A stretch of DNA of 59,816 bases from Methanobacteriota archaeon (GTDB lineage: Archaea; Thermoplasmatota; E2; DHVEG-1), in assembly GCA_043806635.1 (NCBI GenBank), contig JAZDGT010000013.1, positions 1 to 59,816 of the forward strand, written 5' to 3'. Positions 2,781 through 45,143 of this stretch are shown piece by piece. Under the pieces are notes generated by a model, which was not told the DNA's origin, ran no database searches, and saw nothing but the letters and a program-made list of their open reading frames with translations. The stretch's first letter is position 1; each line of letters begins with the position of its first letter. The position numbers and the translations under genes were made by a program.

Positions 2781-5700
2781 TCAATTCCATCCACTTTCGT
2801 TTTGGAATGGGTGATGGTCAATGTTATATTCATTGATAATGTAGGGTTGCGATCCGTCATTAGGATTGCCCGTACACGGCCAATCGCTCCAATAGTTCCC
2901 TCCACAAGGGTAGCCGTTATCCCACAGATTGTGTCTGCCTGTGTTAGCTCTTACATTGAAGTCATTGATGAAGTTGTTATGGTAGATGAGATTATCCGAA
3001 GTAGTTTCAATGTCTATACCGCATTGAGTATTATTTGTGATTGTATTTTCAACAATCGTATTGTTGGAAGAATCAGTTTTAAGAAATATACCATTTCTCA
3101 AATTATTGGTAACGGTGTTTCCCTGAATCATATTGTGATGGGAAGATGAATATAGGTAGATGCCATCTCCCGTGTTACCCGTAATCAGATTTTCAGAAAT
3201 GTTGTTCCGATACGAACGTCCACTGACGATACCATAAGATCGATTGATAATACAATTTCTAATAATCGTATTATTATTTGTTGTATCTAATAGGATTCCT
3301 AGCGAGTTGTTATCCTTAATAAGATTATCTGAGATTGTATTATGATGACCTCCGCAAACAAAAACCCCTCTCCAGTTGCCGATGATCACATTTCGAGATA
3401 CAGTGGAATAATACAGGACCATTAGTGTTATTCCTTCCCAGGTATTATTAAGAATCATATTTGAATGAATGGTAATATTTGTAAGACGCATGGTACAATA
3501 AATGCCGAATTTATTATCGGTGATAATAGTATCACGAATCGTACAATTACTGGCGGTTAACCAGATTCCTGCATTAGCATGTTGTATCGTCAACCCCCTG
3601 ATGGTCACGCGATCAGCTCGAAGACGAATAGAGTGATTTGTCCATGATATGCTGTCGATAATCGTCGTATTTTTTTCTTCACCAACAAGATGAAGAGTCT
3701 TGTTAATCCATATATGCTCATAATACGTGCCATTTACAACATTGACCGTACCACCAGTACATACTGCATCGACACCATCTTGGATTCGTTGAAAAGGAAA
3801 CTGCTGTGATCCATCCCAGGGACCAGCAGTGTTATTATCATCAACCCAGACTACTGCTCTGTGAATCATTACGAGGATCGTATCAGTATCAACGTTCCCG
3901 ATGCTATCGTGTACCGTAAGATTCACGGTATAATTACCTACACGTCTATAGGTATGATTCGCTTGTTGCCCCTTTGAAATATTCCCGTCTCCGAAATCCC
4001 ACCACCAATCTTTATAAGGAGGATAGCCTCCACTCGCATGTCCAGTAAAAGACACGGGTTCATTAAGTACCGCTTCAGAAGGAGCAAGGGCTTTCGCATG
4101 AAGTGCCAGCTGCAGGGAGAGTGTAGGATCGCCGAAGTAATTGAGCTGATAGCACTGCCATCTCCAATCCTGCCCATATTGCCCTTGTATCCTCGGGAGA
4201 TTTTGTTCTTTTGAATATTGATTCGCTTTACTAAGGACCGTGATGTTCTTATCGATAACACCATCCCAGAACCAGCGTGCAAATGCCGTTGAAATACCAG
4301 AGTACGAATCTCGTGTGTTCCAAAGCCCAGCGAACGCACCATGTTCTCGTTTCACGGTAAAATACTCCATGATGCTATCCTCTATCAGAGGATTTGTGTT
4401 TGCATCGCGATCAAACGCCCCTGCAGCACACCCCTGTGAGTAGATAAAGCAAGGTTCATCATTGACAAGACGATCAACATCAGTGGTGCTAAAACCTATA
4501 TCTAGCTTCAGGTTTTTGTTAGGCCCAGAATGGCCCAGATGATTAATAATATGGGTTCCATTGTTGATTTCATTGATGATTTCGTCTTTTGGCCATCCTG
4601 TATCCCATGGATCATTTGGGTCGAACCCTGGCCACGAATGATCGTAGAGCCGCTCAATATCGTATTCATCAGCAGGGATCCCAACGGTATTATCCGTTCG
4701 GTTGATCAGCTGTTCTAAATAGGTATCACCGAATTGTCCTGGTCTCAGATACTCACCAGCCATCACTATTTTTTTCAAATAATTATTATAGACGTCTATG
4801 TTTATCGTACAAAAATTTTTCATCTGAAGATATTTCAACGTTTTATTCACAAAATGACCAACTTCGGTGCGGTTTCCGACACAGGCTCTCCCTACATATA
4901 CCTCTGCTCTTAGGTCAACATCAGTCCCGTTCTCACCATCAGTAGCCTCACCCCACCTATTATTATGATTTGAATTATAAGGGCCATCAAGGCAACTGTA
5001 ATAGAAATCAGAAGGACCATAGACATGATTGTTATAATCATATCCAAAATATAGTGTAGGAGCGGGGACTAGATCGATATCACCACCGAGAAGAAGGTAT
5101 TCAATACCCCAAGTAGTATACATCTCTCTGGTAAAATTCCGAATATTTTCACATGTTTGATTCACTGTATTCCCAAGAGGAATATCGGCCCCTAAGGTTT
5201 TGATAATGGTAGATATGCCTCGTCTATTGTGGACGGTTGCTAACTGAAAAAAACCACCCTTTAACTCGTCTGTTGTAATAATGAGGAGATCATATTTTTT
5301 AACGATTCTCTGAGCAGGTTCGTTCGATATGTATGTTTGTATAACCTCAGGGTTATCAATTTTCTCTTTTACCTCACTGTCGTCCACCTCTAATCCACGA
5401 TAAAGCAAATGAGTATTTTCTTTTATGTGTGTCCGGACAACGATAGTCATCTCAGAATAACATTCAAGTATATTGGTCAGAGGAGTGTATTTAATAGGAT
5501 ATAATGACAAACTAAGAATTCGATAACCCCTGAAACACTGGGTACCAATCTGATCAAAAAGCTTCTCAGGAAAGGGGGCGGCAGATGTATAGATCGTCGG
5601 ATTCGGTGTTGGGAATGTTGCTACGTCTATTTGTGAACAGGGAACTAGGGTATCTGCTGGTTCAATCTTCTTTTCTATCCTGATTGTAACTTTGTCACCA

Positions 5701-42505: not shown

Positions 42506-43318
42506 ATGAACTGGAGAGAAAAATACTTGGATGCCGTTCATACCAATAATAGTCTACTCTGTATTGGATTGGATACAGACACAGAAAAACTACCCCGTTT
42601 CTTAATTGAAGCCAAGAAACACCCGGTGTTTGATTTCAACAAAGCAATCATCGATGCAACCAAGGACTTGGTGTGCGCCTATAAACTCAACATGGCATTC
42701 TACGAGATACTTGGAAAAAACGGTTTCACTGTCCTTGAAAAAACTATCAGTCACATCCCGAAAGACATCCTCATCATCCTTGATGGCAAACGCAACGATA
42801 TCGGGAACACCGCCCAGAAATACGCACAAACCCTGTTTGACACCTTTAAAGCAGACGCAGTGACCGTGACCCCCTATCTAGGAAAAGATGGAGTCGACCC
42901 CTTCCTCACCTACACGGAGAAATGCAGTTTTATCCTCTGCCGAACCTCAAACCCTTCCGCACGCGACTTTCAAGATTTATCGGTCTCATCGGTTCCCTTA
43001 TACCAGATTGTTGCCCAAAAAATTCGAGAATGGAACACAAACGGGAATTGCGGCGCTGTCGTCGGAGCAACCTACCCTGAGGAGCTTAAAATCGTGCGAG
43101 GCATACTCGGCGAAGAAATACCGCTGCTTATACCCGGTATCGGGAAACAGGGTGGTGACATCGAAAAAACCGTACAAAACGGGACTAACGCACACGGTGA
43201 AATGATACTCGTGAATTCATCACGGGATATCATATTTGCAGGTGGGGACGTAGATTTCGCTGAGCATTCACGTAAGAAAGCAGAAGCCATTCGTAATCAG
43301 ATGAATACCTTTCGATAA
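42506..43318 (+). CDS. pyrF: Orotidine-5'-phosphate decarboxylase
   Basis: LCIGLD, LDGKRNDIGNT, CRTSNP, VVGAT, PGIGKQGG, VNSSR. Confidence 0.95.
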   Translation: MNWREKYLDAVHTNNSLLCIGLDTDTEKLPRFLIEAKKHPVFDFNKAIIDATKDLVCAYKLNMAFYEILGKNGFTVLEKTISHIPKDILIILDGKRNDIGNTAQKYAQTLFDTFKADAVTVTPYLGKDGVDPFLTYTEKCSFILCRTSNPSARDFQDLSVSSVPLYQIVAQKIREWNTNGNCGAVVGATYPEELKIVRGILGEEIPLLIPGIGKQGGDIEKTVQNGTNAHGEMILVNSSRDIIFAGGDVDFAEHSRKKAEAIRNQMNTFR

Positions 43319-43371
43319 AAAAAACAGGGGAGTCGAAACGTTAATAAAACAATCAGATATGATTCTTTTTC

Positions 43372-43625
43372 ACCCTTGATAAGAAGATCTCCATGAGACC
43401 GTGATTGGAGACGCAAGGTCAAGGGCACAGGTTGATACTGATAGGGTCCCTCGTTGATCGATCAGACGAAACGTCAAGAAATGATATTTGAGGATAACCT
43501 CGGTATCCGAGAACTGTCGCGAGATACGTAGTGGTCTTTCTTCCGCTGCTGCAATAACGGCAGAGAGACTATGACCACACCCAACATCGAAACATTTTTT
43601 TCGTGATGTTGGGTGACAGCGACTA
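43372..43625 (+). ncRNA. Candidate ~250-nt multi-stem non-coding RNA of unknown family
   Basis: At least six stems; TTAATAAA TATA at 43341; T8 tract at 43633-43640; no ORF. Confidence 0.55.
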
Positions 43626-43835
43626 ACAAAAATTTTTTTTGTTCGAAAATTTCGTTACAAAATATCAATATTTTTATGGTATTTTATGCATAAAGAAATA
43701 GATAATATTATAATGTTAAAGAGGATACCAATAACTAGTCTTGGAGTCGAGTTGGAAAGGTACACCGAATATCAAAAATAAGAGAATCCTGAATACGGTA
43801 AAGGACTTCTCTTTATGGAGGAGAAAAACACAAAC

Positions 43836-43866: not shown

Positions 43867-44030
43867 CCCAACTAGAGTAAAAAAATTAGGAAAAAAATAG
43901 AAAAAATAGAATATGAGAACGATACTATTTCCTTCACAGAACATCCGGCTACTGATATTCCGCTAACGAGTGGATATACCGGGATAAAAAGGAAGGATAA
44001 CTCGTTCTATTCAATGGTGAGGAAACAGGA

Positions 44031-45143
44031 ATGAAAATCGCGATGATAGGCTGGGAATACCCACCGTTCAAAGTGGGTGGCTTAGGAACTCATTGTTACG
44101 GGCTTACACACGGTCTTGCCGATAAAGGTATCCAGATTGATTTTTATATGCCGAAAATCCGGAACAAAATCAAAAGCGATAAGAAAAACATCAACATCAT
44201 CGAAGTCGGAGAAACCGAGATTTTCCCCTACGACCGACCCGATGATAAATCCCTCGGCGGAAAATTTTTTGAGAAAGTGTACAAGTACAACGAACTCCTC
44301 GTTTCAAAAGTGAAAGGAAAATATAATGCGGTTCACTGTCATGATTGGCTGACGATGAAAGCAGGAATCCAGATCAAGGAAAAACTCGGGATCCCCCTCA
44401 TCGTCACCGTGCATTCCACAGAATACGACCGTGCCGGATGGCTGTACCCGAATCAATGGTTTATTGATATCGAACGCGAAGGCATGGAGAAAGCAGATAG
44501 AGTTATTGCAGTCAGTAACTTCACGAAACAAGTCATCGTAGAAAAATACGGGATCAACCCTGATAAAATCAGTGTTGTCCACAACGCGGTGTACCCCATT
44601 GGTGGTGGAGAAAAAAAGAATCTGGTGCTATTCCTCGGCCGACTCACCCTCCAGAAAGGTCCAGAGTTTTTTTTGAAAGCAGCGAAAAAAGTGTTAGAAC
44701 ATGAAGACACCCATTTTGTGATCGCAGGGACCGGCGATATGCTCCCCCGTCTCATCAACCAAGCGGTGGACATGGGGATTTCAAGCAAAGTGATTTTCAC
44801 GGGGAAACTCACTGATGAGGAAGTCCGCCATATCTACAAAATATCCAGCGTGTACGTGATGCCTTCTGTGAGTGAACCGTTTGGGATCACCGCGCTTGAG
44901 GCATGCTCCGCAGGCACCCCAACGATCGTGTCAAAGAGCTCCGGCGTTTCCGAGGTGTTCCATAACTGTTTCAAAGTGGATTTCTGGGATACCGATGAAA
45001 TGGCGAATAAGATCATTTCGATCATCCGCTATCAGCCGCTGCGGGAAACCATGATGGATTATTCTAAACAAGAGATAAATTTATTTACCTGGGATCGTGT
45101 TGCAGATAGGACTTTAGACGTGTACAACGAAGTCGCGAGGTAA
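44031..45143 (+). CDS. GT4 glycosyltransferase (glycogen synthase-like)
   Basis: WEYPPFKVGGLG, HCHDWLT, HSTEYDR, EPFGITALEA. Confidence 0.88.
   Translation: MKIAMIGWEYPPFKVGGLGTHCYGLTHGLADKGIQIDFYMPKIRNKIKSDKKNINIIEVGETEIFPYDRPDDKSLGGKFFEKVYKYNELLVSKVKGKYNAVHCHDWLTMKAGIQIKEKLGIPLIVTVHSTEYDRAGWLYPNQWFIDIEREGMEKADRVIAVSNFTKQVIVEKYGINPDKISVVHNAVYPIGGGEKKNLVLFLGRLTLQKGPEFFLKAAKKVLEHEDTHFVIAGTGDMLPRLINQAVDMGISSKVIFTGKLTDEEVRHIYKISSVYVMPSVSEPFGITALEACSAGTPTIVSKSSGVSEVFHNCFKVDFWDTDEMANKIISIIRYQPLRETMMDYSKQEINLFTWDRVADRTLDVYNEVAR

What the first reader, a model, noticed from the sequence alone, without database searches (positions are those of the whole stretch)
43372..43625. Unannotated ~250-nt highly structured RNA between pyrF and the glycogen operon
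Seen: a GC-richer, ORF-free stretch with its own TATA (TTAATAAA at 43341) and T8 tract (43633-43640). Stems: CCCTTGA/TCAAGGG (43373/43419) enclosing TCTCCA/TGGAGA; CTGAT/ATCAG; GACG/CGTC; GTATC/GATAC; GTGGTCTTTCT/AGAGAGACTAT with three G-U pairs favouring the plus strand; a perfect 11-bp CACCCAACATC/GATGTTGGGTG; and a possible long-range pairing CTGTCGC (43514)/GTGACAG (43613). I see no RNase P (GAGGAAAGUCC), SRP helix-8, tRNA or hammerhead core motifs. Inference: a novel archaeal ncRNA or ribozyme.
Basis: partly seen in the sequence, partly recalled or inferred. Interest (0 to 1): 0.7.

Follow-up and report, generated by a model that had tools for sequence, protein, structure and literature searches.

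The report
Divergent archaeal box H/ACA guide RNA
The structured stretch is a real, conserved small RNA gene, but not a new kind: it is a diverged pseudouridine-guide (box H/ACA) RNA of the Pab40/Pf7/Afu-4 family whose third guide hairpin has decayed.

Summary
Window 43373-43623 (+) is a conserved, single-copy, about 255-nt RNA gene with its own TATA box and T8 tract. It folds better than shuffles (z -3.6). On 30 homologues, 26 of 47 pairs show compensatory changes.

It is not a new class or a ribozyme. It is an archaeal box H/ACA pseudouridylation guide sRNA.
- Hairpin 1 has a lower stem, pocket, upper stem, K-loop and an ACA box 14-15 nt from the pocket top.
- Hairpin 2 has a K-turn and an invariant ANA box.
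- Cbf5 and L7Ae genes are in the same genome.

Rfam's HgcG/Pab40 model scores only 13 bits here. It scores 53 bits (E 1.5e-12) on sister-family homologues that my own model links to the window.

Predicted targets:
- Hairpin 1 matches the 23S helix-89 site that Pab40 motif 1 guides.
- Hairpin 2 matches the same two candidate sites debated for Afu-4/Pf7 motif 2.

The 3' domain is a lineage-specific three-way junction. It holds a hairpin with an invariant CUGCUG loop and a plain hairpin followed by ACA. That plain hairpin is the remnant of the third, helix-69-guiding motif. Families with the remnant have C where other families keep the helix-69 target U.

The parts
43334..43348 (+). Archaeal promoter: purine-rich BRE-like CGAAAC (43334-39) and TATA box TTAATAAA (43341-48), about 25-30 nt upstream of hairpin 1
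   Evidence: One search prints the 50 nt upstream of hairpin 1 for 26 homologues. By eye, not counted by a program, nearly all show a CGAAA/CAAAA element followed by a TTAAT/ATATTAA-type element at the same distance.
43373..43425 (+). H/ACA hairpin 1. Lower stem 43373-79/43419-25. 5' guide 43380-87 (UAAGAAGA). Upper stem 43388-93/43406-11. K-loop 43394-43405 (UGA...UGAU). 3' guide 43412-18 (CGCAAGG).
   Evidence: the 7-bp and 6-bp helices are 93.8% and 97.8% paired, with 4 and 6 pairs showing compensatory change; the guide cores GAAG and GCAA and the UGA/UGA of the K-loop are kept in 87-92 of 88-92 sequences; the HgcG model aligns its motif 1 onto this hairpin stem for stem.
43427..43429 (+). 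ACA box of hairpin 1, 14-15 nt 3' of the pocket top
   Evidence: One search gives the coordinates. A 95 of 95 and C 88 of 95 at the first two positions.
43433..43508 (+). H/ACA hairpin 2. Lower stem 43433-40/43501-08. 5' pocket strand 43441-48 (AUAGGGUC). Upper stem 43449-55/43485-93. K-turn: GA 43456-57 opposite AAUGA 43480-84, with C-stem UC/GA. Conserved apical stem-loop 43460-77. 3' pocket strand 43494-43500 (AUAACCU).
   Evidence: lower stem 95% paired, with 4 pairs compensatory. K-turn GA in 92 and 95 of 95 and UGA in 94-95 of 95; pocket GGGUC and A-Y-A-A-C-C nearly invariant; the HgcG model aligns its motif 2 (GGUCCCCUC ... AACCC) to the homologous hairpin of sister families.
43510..43512 (+). 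ANA box (AGA) of hairpin 2, 14-16 nt from the pocket top depending on where the upper stem is taken to close
   Evidence: A-N-A with both A present in 95 of 95 sequences. One search gives the coordinates.
43516..43623 (+). 3' domain, a three-way junction closed by GUCGC (43516-20) pairing with GCGAC (43619-23)
   Evidence: helix 97.9% paired, C-G to U-A in 2 sequences and U-G-compatible changes in 4; single-sequence MFE folds recover the closing helix in 61 of 77 homologous domains.
43529..43577 (+). Hairpin 3, with the invariant loop motif CUGCUG at 43546-51. It has no pocket, no K-turn, and no known function.
   Evidence: the exact 6-mer is found downstream of 87 of 95 hits, and at least 4 of its 6 bases are unpaired in 60 of 77 folds. 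The stem sequences differ widely between homologues.
43578..43618 (+). Hairpin 4 (CACCCAAC.../...GUUGGGUG, 43578-85/43608-15) followed by the invariant ACA (43616-18). It is a vestigial third H/ACA motif: stem and ACA are kept, pocket and K-turn are lost.
   Evidence: 99.1% paired, 4 of 8 pairs compensatory; the hairpin at this position in other families is a full H/ACA motif complementary to the helix-69 loop flanks. The window has no such complementarity.
43633..43640 (+). T8 tract, the likely archaeal terminator
   Evidence: One search prints the downstream 45 nt of homologues; most show T-runs, read by eye.

Best explanation
Window 43373-43623 (+) encodes a box H/ACA guide sRNA. It is transcribed from its own BRE/TATA promoter and ends near the T8 tract.

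The inferred mechanism follows the family's established one:
- Each of the two 5' hairpins binds L7Ae at its K-loop or K-turn.
- Each binds Cbf5-Nop10-Gar1 at its lower stem and ACA/ANA box.
- The two strands of the internal loop pair with 23S rRNA on either side of an unpaired U-N, and that U is isomerised to pseudouridine.

Predicted targets:
- Hairpin 1 is predicted to guide the U at the 3' end of helix 89. This is position 2535 of relative G019, which I number E. coli 2496, equivalent to P. abyssi 2588, the target of Pab40/Pf7/Afu-4 motif 1.
- Hairpin 2 is predicted to guide either the U that I number E. coli 2586 (the site of H. volcanii sR-h45 stem-loop 1) or the A-loop U2555, or both.

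The RNA is a diverged member of the HgcG/Pab40/Pf7/Afu-4 lineage. In this class a hairpin with a CUGCUG loop and a closing helix were inserted. In this family the third, helix-69-guiding motif has decayed to a plain hairpin plus ACA.

Shown here: conservation, structure, box positions, complementarity, and presence of Cbf5 and L7Ae. Inferred: protein binding, pseudouridylation and the exact targets.
For: 1. Conservation. Homologues are single-copy in 30 of 36 same-family genomes by BLAST. My model R1 finds them in 63 of 67 family genomes, 114 of 151 class genomes and 47 of 151 phylum genomes.

2. Structure. Of 47 pairs, 95.2% pair, 26 are compensatory, and 0 of 500 shuffles reach this.

3. H/ACA signature in 95 aligned sequences:
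- The K-loop UGA...UGA and the K-turn GA...UGA are nearly invariant.
- The ACA box has A 95 and C 88 of 95. The ANA box has A-N-A in 95 of 95.
- The spacing from the upper-stem closing pair to the box is 14-15 nt for hairpin 1 and 14-16 nt for hairpin 2. This agrees with the 14-16 nt rule read in PMC4652768 (passages) and the 14-15 nt rule in PMC2377435 (section 22 passage).
- The GA stem has 9-10 layers, against the 10 stated in PMC4652768.

4. Family link.
- HgcG is the only H/ACA family hit in the window (13.2 bits), and its motif 1 aligns stem for stem with hairpin 1.
- On 16 sister-family loci that R1 matches, HgcG matches 10 at E <= 1. The best are 53.7, 53.6 and 53.1 bits, E about 1.5e-12.

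5. Hairpin 1 target.
- The consensus guides pair with CUUGC-UA-CUUCGA, 11 contiguous pairs, in 5 of 6 full LSU rRNAs of the class and 10 pairs in the sixth.
- The same criterion finds 62 sites in 3.86 Mb of the own genome, so 0.07 are expected per 4.4 kb of rRNA.
- The site coincides with the Pab40 motif 1 target.

6. Hairpin 2 targets. The two best LSU matches, GGUUGU-UC-GCCC and GGUU-UA-GACC, are the two sites discussed for Afu-4/Pf7 motif 2 in PMC2377435, section 27.

7. Machinery. Cbf5 (418.6 bits) and two L7Ae-family genes are in the own genome. Nop10 is in 33 of 36 family genomes.

8. Independent transcription unit. A conserved promoter-like element lies upstream.

9. Weak hint of expression. 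Metatranscriptome contigs of 57-207 nt from 4 runs in 4 studies lie inside the RNA at 80-95% likeness. Their loose ends continue as homologous RNA, not as flanking genes.
Against: - The window's own HgcG score (13.2 bits, E 0.15-0.33) is far below the gathering score of 77. No homologue seen reaches it either (best 53.7).
- Nop10 and Gar1 were not found in the own MAG, which is 85.7% complete.
- The own rRNA is not assembled. Targets are therefore read from relatives.
- The window's 5' guide of hairpin 1 (UAAGAAGA) gives only 4 + 5 pairs, not 6 + 5. This variant occurs in 11 of 92 sequences.
- The 0.07 chance expectation for the hairpin 1 site is not negligible on its own.
- Hairpin 2 fits neither candidate cleanly:
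  - The A-loop site needs a 16-nt spacing.
  - The 2586 site leaves two guide bases unpaired at the pocket top.
  - The 2586 site's 3' flank changes in other families without a compensating guide change, and in f6 the U itself is replaced by C.
- Hairpins 3 and 4 meet no H/ACA criterion except the ACA.
- The metatranscriptome contigs come from relatives, and DNA carry-over cannot be excluded.
- My E. coli numbering rests on recalled landmarks.
Confidence: 0.88

Rival explanations
1. It is a structured RNA of a new class, a ribozyme or a protein-binding scaffold, unrelated to pseudouridylation.
For: There is no Rfam hit at gathering score. The 3' domain (43516-43623) has conserved elements that no H/ACA rule explains: the CUGCUG loop and the closing helix.
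Against: Every defining H/ACA element is present and invariant in hairpins 1 and 2. HgcG matches sister-family homologues at E 1.5e-12. The pockets are complementary to known H/ACA target sites. In other classes of the phylum the same RNA is a plain three-hairpin H/ACA RNA.
Confidence: 0.03
2. It is a diverged RNase P RNA or SRP RNA. The own MAG lacks a detectable RNase P RNA.
For: RNaseP_arch finds nothing in the own genome. The size of about 255 nt would fit a reduced RNase P RNA.
Against: RNaseP_arch matches 27 of 36 family genomes on contigs other than those holding this RNA's homologues. For example, G024 has RNase P on C19 and this RNA on C27. SRP RNA sits on contig C38 at 207 bits. No RNase P family appears even at E <= 10.
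Confidence: 0.01
3. It is an H/ACA RNP whose main role in this family is no longer modification. It would act instead in rRNA folding or processing, as a chaperone, with the guide pockets serving as docking sites and the 3' domain as the functional novelty.
For: The third motif has lost its pocket but keeps its stem and ACA under selection. The invariant CUGCUGC loop is complementary to the GCAGCAG loop of LSU helix 91, which lies between the predicted target sites. In G031 the gene lies about 440 nt upstream of the 16S gene on the same strand.
Against: The guide cores and box spacing of hairpins 1 and 2 are conserved exactly as for active guides. No covariation supports the helix-91 pairing, because both partners are invariant. 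A 7-mer match in 4.4 kb of rRNA is expected by chance about 0.3 times (my arithmetic). In most relatives the rRNA genes are 10 kb or more away, or not on the contig.
Confidence: 0.07
4. It is a cis-acting element of the neighbouring genes: a pyrF 3' UTR or a leader of the glycosyltransferase/GH57 operon.
For: pyrF lies next to the RNA in 25 of 29 relatives' loci.
Against: It has its own conserved promoter-like element and T-tract. The downstream glycosyltransferase is adjacent in only 10 of 29 loci and starts 390 nt after the T8 tract. The anatomy is that of a trans-acting guide RNA.
Confidence: 0.01

Closest known systems
Pab40 / Pf7 / Afu-4 three-motif H/ACA sRNA (Rfam RF00064, HgcG)
   Same: - Order and predicted targets of motifs 1 and 2. 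Motif 1 targets the helix-89 U (P. abyssi 2588). Motif 2 has the same two candidates as in PMC2377435, section 27.
- Conserved motif-2 pocket (GGUCCC ... AACC).
- ACA/ANA boxes, K-loop and K-turn.
- The model hits sister-family homologues at E 1.5e-12.
- Other classes of the phylum have the plain three-hairpin form, with a third motif complementary to helix 69.
   Different: - The window scores only 13.2 bits.
- The third motif has lost its pocket and K-turn.
- A hairpin with a CUGCUG loop and a 5-bp closing helix turn the 3' part into a three-way junction.
- Hairpin 2 carries a conserved extra apical stem-loop beyond the K-turn.
Haloferax volcanii sR-h45 (PMC7075261; abstract and passages read)
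   Same: - A multi-hairpin H/ACA RNA. One stem-loop guides the U next to the peptidyl-transferase centre (H. volcanii 2605) and the last stem-loop guides the two helix-69 uridines.
- A non-guide linker of 56 nt lies between the guide hairpins.
- Two unpaired guide bases sit at the top of the 3' pocket strand of the 2605 guide, as hairpin 2 would have for that target.
   Different: - sR-h45 has no helix-89 guide.
- Its helix-69 guide is active, whereas here it is vestigial.
Pyrobaculum H/ACA-like sRNAs with truncated lower stems (as described in PMC4652768; passages read)
   Same: They are examples of decayed H/ACA motifs that keep only part of the canonical architecture.
   Different: There the lower stem is lost and the pocket and K-turn are kept, so the RNAs still guide. 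Here the lower stem and ACA are kept and the pocket and K-turn are lost.

Membership tests
Archaeal box H/ACA guide sRNA | Hairpin made of lower stem, internal loop (pocket) and upper stem | tested here: met
   Hairpins 1 and 2. All four helices are supported by compensatory changes.
Archaeal box H/ACA guide sRNA | K-turn or K-loop (tandem sheared G-A) about 10 stacked layers above the pocket | tested here: met
   The sequence motifs are nearly invariant. The layer count is 9-10 for both hairpins, by my count. L7Ae binding itself was not tested.
Archaeal box H/ACA guide sRNA | ACA/ANA box 14-16 nt 3' of the closing pair of the upper stem | tested here: met
   Hairpin 1 is at 14-15 nt and hairpin 2 at 14-16 nt. 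The box A residues are present in 95 of 95 sequences.
Archaeal box H/ACA guide sRNA | Both pocket strands complementary to a stable RNA around an unpaired U-N | tested here: met
   Hairpin 1 makes 5 + 6 pairs with LSU helix 89 in 5 of 6 LSUs; the window's own guide makes 5 + 4. Hairpin 2 has two candidates, of 6 + 4 and 4 + 4 pairs, which remain unresolved.
Archaeal box H/ACA guide sRNA | Cbf5, Nop10, Gar1 and L7Ae encoded by the organism | tested here: inconclusive
   Cbf5 and L7Ae are present in the own MAG. Nop10 and Gar1 were not found in it (85.7% complete). Nop10 is present in 33 of 36 family genomes. Gar1 was not searched in relatives.
Archaeal box H/ACA guide sRNA | Guide-dependent pseudouridine at the predicted site | not testable with these tools
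   This needs pseudouridine mapping or in vitro reconstitution.
Rfam RF00064 HgcG (Pab40) | Score at or above the gathering score of 77 bits | tested here: not met
   The window scores 13.2 bits. The best sister-family homologue scores 53.7 bits.
Rfam RF00064 HgcG (Pab40) | Statistically significant homology, direct or transitive | tested here: met
   R1, built from the window's family, matches loci L199-L214 at E 1e-9 to 1e-24. HgcG matches 7 of those 16 loci at E 1e-6 to 1.5e-12 over the same hairpins.
Rfam RF00064 HgcG (Pab40) | Three functional H/ACA motifs | tested here: not met
   The third motif in the window has no pocket, no K-turn, and no complementarity to helix 69. It is intact in families f6, f8, f9 and in other classes.
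RNase P RNA / SRP RNA | Match to the family model, and being the only copy in the genome | tested here: not met
   There is no match in the region at E <= 10. SRP RNA is on another contig. RNase P RNA is elsewhere in 27 of 36 relatives.

The most novel reading that the evidence does not exclude
The 3' domain is not dead weight. After helix 69 of the 23S rRNA lost its near-universal target U, the third guide motif was stripped to a Cbf5-binding stem plus ACA. The loss is to C at the position I number 1915, in 8 of 8 genomes of the two families with the plain hairpin, against U in 10 of 10 genomes of other families. The remnant is retained because a third protein set, or the three-way junction, is needed for RNP assembly. 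The class-specific hairpin 3 would use its invariant CUGCUGC loop to kiss the GCAGCAG loop of helix 91, which lies between the helix-89 and A-loop/2586 target sites. This accessory docking would place one RNP on neighbouring targets of the peptidyl-transferase region. This would be a case of guide RNA and rRNA co-evolving through loss of one of the most conserved modification sites known.
Probability: 0.15. Interest if true: 0.6.

Novelty: new member of a known kind. Interest (0 to 1): 0.38.

Why it matters
The RNA family is ordinary biology, rRNA pseudouridylation guides. Three points give the result some value.

1. Rfam's HgcG model misses this lineage at its gathering score. These abundant sediment archaea therefore carry an unannotated guide RNA in most genomes. 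The alignment and model made here would let it be annotated across at least one class of Thermoplasmatota.

2. The family gives a natural series: a plain three-hairpin RNA, then a form with an added CUGCUG hairpin and closing helix, then a form with a decayed third motif. The last step coincides with replacement of the helix-69 target uridine by C. This links guide decay to target loss. It fits the H. volcanii finding that the second helix-69 pseudouridine needs the first U (PMC7075261, abstract).

3. A whole family-level lineage appears to lack the U that is pseudouridylated in helix 69 in nearly all organisms studied (so stated for that site in PMC2377435, section 19 passage). That is of interest to ribosome specialists.

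Tried and rejected
- RNase P and SRP readings were rejected.
- No tRNA or tmRNA is found in the whole window.
- The sigma-70/intrinsic-terminator scan was uninformative for an archaeon. It gave 1 promoter-like and 1 terminator-like site, both on the minus strand and at shuffle level.
- My first target scans, with wrongly set pocket borders, found nothing.
- No 16S target of 8 or more pairs was found for hairpin 1.
- The own genome and the 'complete' relatives G008 and G002 gave no usable rRNA. G008's rRNA loci hold runs of N.
- A pseudoknot between the CUGCUG loop and the CAGCG of the 3' strand was considered and rejected. The G-to-A change in L021 and L023 is compensated in the closing helix, not in the loop.
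- An ACA box directly after hairpin 3 was considered and rejected. Its middle A is paired in hairpin 4 and covaries.
- Helix-69 complementarity was sought in the window's 3' domain and in family f10; none was found.
- The search of earlier findings was not open.
- Sequencing runs: only small shares (0.07 of the words) in 5 RNA runs. The contigs laid come from relatives at under 95% likeness. They show no start, end, strand or level, and parts without cover say nothing.
- Literature search: among the 12 listed of 121 papers holding at least 2 of my 5 terms, none combined an H/ACA term with Thermoplasmat*/MBG-D. This is a thin basis for saying the RNA is not in print.
- Complex prediction, protein searches and structure prediction were not used, because the finding is an RNA.
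Full report
**What is there.** The + strand folds to -89.6 kcal/mol against -71.65 +/- 4.98 for 200 dinucleotide shuffles (z -3.60). The minus strand is nearly as good (z -3.33), so energy does not choose the strand. No Rfam family reaches its gathering score anywhere in the 59.8-kb window, and ARAGORN finds no tRNA.

**It is a conserved gene, and not RNase P or SRP.**
- BLAST of 43330-43650 against 60 relatives finds one copy in 30 of 36 same-family genomes, at 68-81% identity, and in 4 of 10 genomes of two other families of the order.
- The archaeal SRP RNA sits on another contig of the same genome (207 bits).
- RNaseP_arch finds nothing in this 85.7%-complete MAG. It does match 27 of 36 family genomes, on contigs other than those carrying this RNA's homologues. 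The missing RNase P RNA is therefore an assembly gap, not this locus.
- Record titles of 68 of the 80 listed loci from a pattern scan of GTDB species genomes name Thermoplasmatota, Thermoplasmata, Thermoplasmatales or unclassified archaeal MAGs. The other 12 are bacterial and look like chance matches; 111 stretches were found in all.

**Structure.** A MAFFT alignment of 30 sequences (A1) gives an RNAalifold consensus of 39 pairs, 22 of them with compensatory changes. I then tested a hand-completed model of 47 pairs in 8 helices.
- 95.2% of cells pair, against 89.3 +/- 0.4 in shuffles.
- 26 pairs have changes on both sides, against 9.6 +/- 2.1 in shuffles. None of 500 shuffles reaches any measure.
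- Partners slid by 1-3 columns pair only 32-43%.

**Anatomy: a box H/ACA guide RNA.** Coordinates are.

Hairpin 1:

| Element | Window position | Sequence |
|---|---|---|
| Lower stem | 43373-79 / 43419-25 | 7 bp |
| 5' loop strand | 43380-87 | UAAGAAGA |
| Upper stem | 43388-93 / 43406-11 | 6 bp |
| Apical loop | 43394-43405 | UGA...UGAU |
| 3' loop strand | 43412-18 | CGCAAGG |
| ACA box | 43427-29 | one base after the lower stem |

The apical loop can form the U-U, G-A, A-G stack of a K-loop.

Hairpin 2:

| Element | Window position | Sequence |
|---|---|---|
| Lower stem | 43433-40 / 43501-08 | |
| 5' loop strand | 43441-48 | AUAGGGUC |
| 3' loop strand | 43494-43500 | AUAACCU |
| K-turn, non-bulged strand | 43456-57 | GA |
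| K-turn, bulged strand | 43480-84 | AAU bulge plus GA |
| C-stem | 43458-59 / 43478-79 | UC / GA |
| ANA box | 43510-12 | AGA |

The upper stem of hairpin 2 ends in this canonical K-turn.

In 95 sequences aligned to my covariance model R1, the following hold:
- The guide cores of hairpin 1 (GAAG and GCAA) are kept in 87-92 of 90-92 sequences.
- Both K-motifs are kept in 88-95 sequences.
- The ACA box has A in 95 and C in 88 of 95.
- The ANA box is A-N-A in 95 of 95.

The 95 came from 99 sources: the window, 84 of the 111 pattern loci (12 with bacterial titles and 15 beyond the cap were left out), and 14 of the 16 loci.

The distance from the closing pair of the upper stem to the box is 14-15 nt for hairpin 1 and 14-16 nt for hairpin 2. 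The stack from that pair to the second G-A is 9-10 layers. These are the values given for productive archaeal guides: 14-16 nt and 10 layers (PMC4652768, passages read), and 14 or 15 nt with a 6-bp helix H2 (PMC2377435, section 22 passage read).

The enzyme Cbf5 (418.6 bits, above the curated cut-off) and two L7Ae-family genes are in the same MAG. Nop10 and Gar1 were not found in it. Nop10 is in 33 of 36 family genomes and 57 of 61 relatives.

**Family.** The only H/ACA family that touches the window is HgcG (RF00064, Pab40), at 13.2 bits (E 0.33 in 901 nt; E 0.15 in 421 nt). That is weak, but the alignment puts the model's motif 1 onto hairpin 1 stem for stem, K-loop on K-loop and ACA on ACA.

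The decisive link is transitive.
- R1 finds the RNA in 114 of 151 genomes of the class: f1 63/67, f2 4/4, f4 24/25, f10 10/13, f8 3/4, f9 2/2, and f6 7/32, the last only partial.
- R1 finds it in 47 of 151 genomes sampled across the phylum.
- On 16 fetched loci of the other families, all of which R1 matches, cmscan gives HgcG on 10 at E <= 1. The top scores are 53.7, 53.6 and 53.1 bits (E about 1.5e-12), and four more lie at E 1e-6 to 1e-7.
- Both motif 1 and motif 2 are aligned, including motif 2's GGUCCCCUC ... AACCC pocket.
- None reaches the gathering score of 77. That is why these genomes stay unannotated.

**Targets.** The own rRNA is not assembled, so I used LSU rRNAs of relatives.

Hairpin 1:
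- With pocket borders fixed by the structure, the consensus guides of hairpin 1 (UUCGAAG and GCAAGG) pair with CUUGC-UA-CUUCGA. That is 5 + 6 contiguous pairs, in 5 of 6 full LSUs of the class, and 4 + 6 in the sixth. No other rRNA site exceeds 8.
- The same criterion finds 62 sites in 3.86 Mb of the own genome, both strands, so 0.07 are expected in 4.4 kb of rRNA.
- The site is the last U of the 3' strand of helix 89. By recalled E. coli landmarks I number it 2496.
- PMC2377435 says that Pab35 makes the pseudouridines made in E. coli by RluE, RluB and RluC. Its Table 1 gives Pab35 sites 2549, 2672 and 2697. With the recalled E. coli sites 2457, 2580 and 2605, this gives an offset of +92. E. 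coli 2496 is therefore P. abyssi 2588, the experimentally confirmed target of Pab40 motif 1 (Table 1, sections 18-19 and 26 read).
- The window's own 5' guide (UAAGAAGA, a variant seen in 11 of 92 sequences) keeps 4 of the 6 pairs.

Hairpin 2:
- The two best LSU matches are GGUUGU-UC-GCCC (the A loop; E. coli 2555 = P. abyssi 2647) and GGUU-UA-GACC (E. coli 2586 = P. abyssi 2678).
- These are exactly the two sites discussed for motif 2 of Afu-4 and Pf7: the earlier proposal and the one preferred by Muller et al.'s rules (PMC2377435, section 27 read in full).
- The second site is also the pseudouridine 2605 that H. volcanii sR-h45 stem-loop 1 makes (PMC7075261, abstract and passages).

I cannot decide between the two.
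- For 2586: the spacing is 14 nt. The geometry, with two unpaired guide bases at the top of the 3' strand, resembles what the sR-h45 mutants C56 and G57 imply.
- For the A loop: the two variable guide positions vary only U/C and would face G. The A loop is invariant in all 13 LSUs that cover it. By contrast the 2586 site is C in both f6 LSUs, and its 3' neighbour changes in f25 and f44 without a guide change.
- Against the A loop: its spacing would be 16 nt.
- One motif guiding two sites is known (PMC2377435, section 21 passage).

**The 3' domain.** After the ANA box, the closing helix encloses hairpin 3 (43529-77) and hairpin 4 (43578-43615).
- Hairpin 3's loop holds CUGCUG (43546-51). The exact 6-mer is present downstream of 87 of 95 R1 hits.
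- Hairpin 4 is followed by an invariant ACA (43616-18).
- ACA plus the closing strand is found in 78 of 95 R1 hits.
- The three-way junction is recovered by single-sequence folding in 61 of 77 domains.
- Neither hairpin has a pocket or K-motif.

Comparison with other lineages explains hairpin 4.
- In other classes of the phylum (f23, f25, f27, f37, f44, f47, f48), the RNA is a plain three-hairpin H/ACA RNA.
- In f6, f8 and f9 of this class, the hairpin in the position of hairpin 4 is a full motif. It has a lower stem, ACA and a GAUGA K-turn.
- Its loop strands contain the reverse complements of the 5-mers flanking the helix-69 loop. The 5' guide is found in 6 of 6 sequences. At least 4 nt of the 3' guide are found in 5 of 6. 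This makes it the counterpart of Pab40 motif 3 and sR-h45 stem-loop 2.
- In f1 (the window's family) and in f10, only the stem and ACA remain, and no such complementarity exists.
- f2 and f4 RNAs end after hairpin 2.

**Guide decay goes with target loss.** The helix-69 loop reads GGGUAAC-C-AU-GACCCUC in 5 of 5 f1 genomes from five genera. After I had predicted it from their plain hairpin, it read the same in 3 of 3 f10 genomes. It reads ...AAC-U-AU-GACC... in 10 of 10 genomes of f5, f6 (2), f7, f8, f9, f23, f25 (2) and f44.

Same-genome pairs:
- Intact motif with U: G058, G229, G248, G180, G194.
- Plain hairpin with C: G019, G001, G015, G031, G028, G071.

The changed base is the one I number E. 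coli 1915. In H. volcanii the second helix-69 pseudouridine is not made without the first U (PMC7075261, abstract). That would make the guide useless once the U is lost.

Caveats: relatives share labels, and f1 and f10 may be sisters, so this may be a single event. The order of the two losses is unknown.

**Expression.** Five metatranscriptome runs from five studies hold a small share of the words. I laid four of them. Their 11 contig pieces (57-207 nt records, mostly 90-95% alike or less) all lie within 43402-43555. Their loose ends read on as homologous RNA sequence, for example into the CUGCUG loop and hairpin 4, and not into pyrF or the spacer. This shows relatives' copies present in RNA libraries. 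It is a weak hint of expression and says nothing about ends or strand.

**Verdict.** It is a diverged member of the HgcG/Pab40/Pf7/Afu-4 H/ACA guide RNA lineage. What goes beyond the ordinary is the lineage-specific three-way-junction domain with an unexplained invariant CUGCUG loop, and a vestigial third motif that tracks loss of the helix-69 target uridine.

The loop is complementary to the GCAGCAG loop of LSU helix 91 in every LSU that covers it here except that of f7, but no covariation is available to test that pairing.

Noticed in passing
LSU rRNA of relatives: L046 (G019), L215-L218, L226-L228: All 8 LSU rRNAs seen from families f1 and f10 have C at the helix-69 loop position that I number E. 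coli 1915. This U is pseudouridylated in nearly all organisms studied. Ten LSUs of eight other families have U.
   Followed up: partly
L050 (G052, family f8), LSU rRNA: An insertion of about 900 nt interrupts the LSU gene a few bases 3' of helix 69 (alignment). It may be an rRNA intron with an ORF.
   Followed up: no
L049 (G056) and L219 (G049), family f6; L238 (G229), L239 (G248): The f6 LSUs have C instead of U at the position I number E. coli 2586. The f25 and f44 LSUs have C instead of G two bases further on. This bears on which site hairpin 2 guides.
   Followed up: partly
G031 contig C52 (L007, L052, L217): In this relative the RNA gene (4893-5140, minus strand) lies about 440 nt upstream of the 16S gene (2987-4454, minus strand), which is followed by the 23S gene. 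In G028 and G019 the 16S gene is 10-14 kb downstream on the same strand. The window's contig ends 16 kb downstream of the RNA.
   Followed up: no
whole genome G000: The MAG (85.7% complete, 83 contigs) has no detectable 16S, 23S, RNase P RNA, Nop10 or Gar1. The 59.8-kb window has no tRNA.
   Followed up: no
window 44010-44067 (+): A weak match to the archaeal C/D box sRNA family sR20 (16.7 bits, E 1.2, gathering score 44) straddles the start of the glycosyltransferase ORF.
   Followed up: no
window 42506-43318 and relatives' loci L003-L031: pyrF lies next to the RNA gene in 25 of 29 relatives' loci. The downstream GT4 glycosyltransferase is adjacent in only 10 of 29.
   Followed up: partly
LSU helix 91 of relatives (G019 positions about 2565-2575): The helix-91 loop reads GCAGCAG in all LSUs that cover it except G050 (f7). 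It is the exact complement of the invariant CUGCUGC of hairpin 3. The same 7-mer also occurs once in the 16S rRNA.
   Followed up: partly
L028 and L030 (G010, G021); L024 (G040): Two family members lack hairpin 4 altogether, so hairpin 3 is followed directly by ACA and the closing strand. One same-order genome lacks hairpin 3.
   Followed up: no
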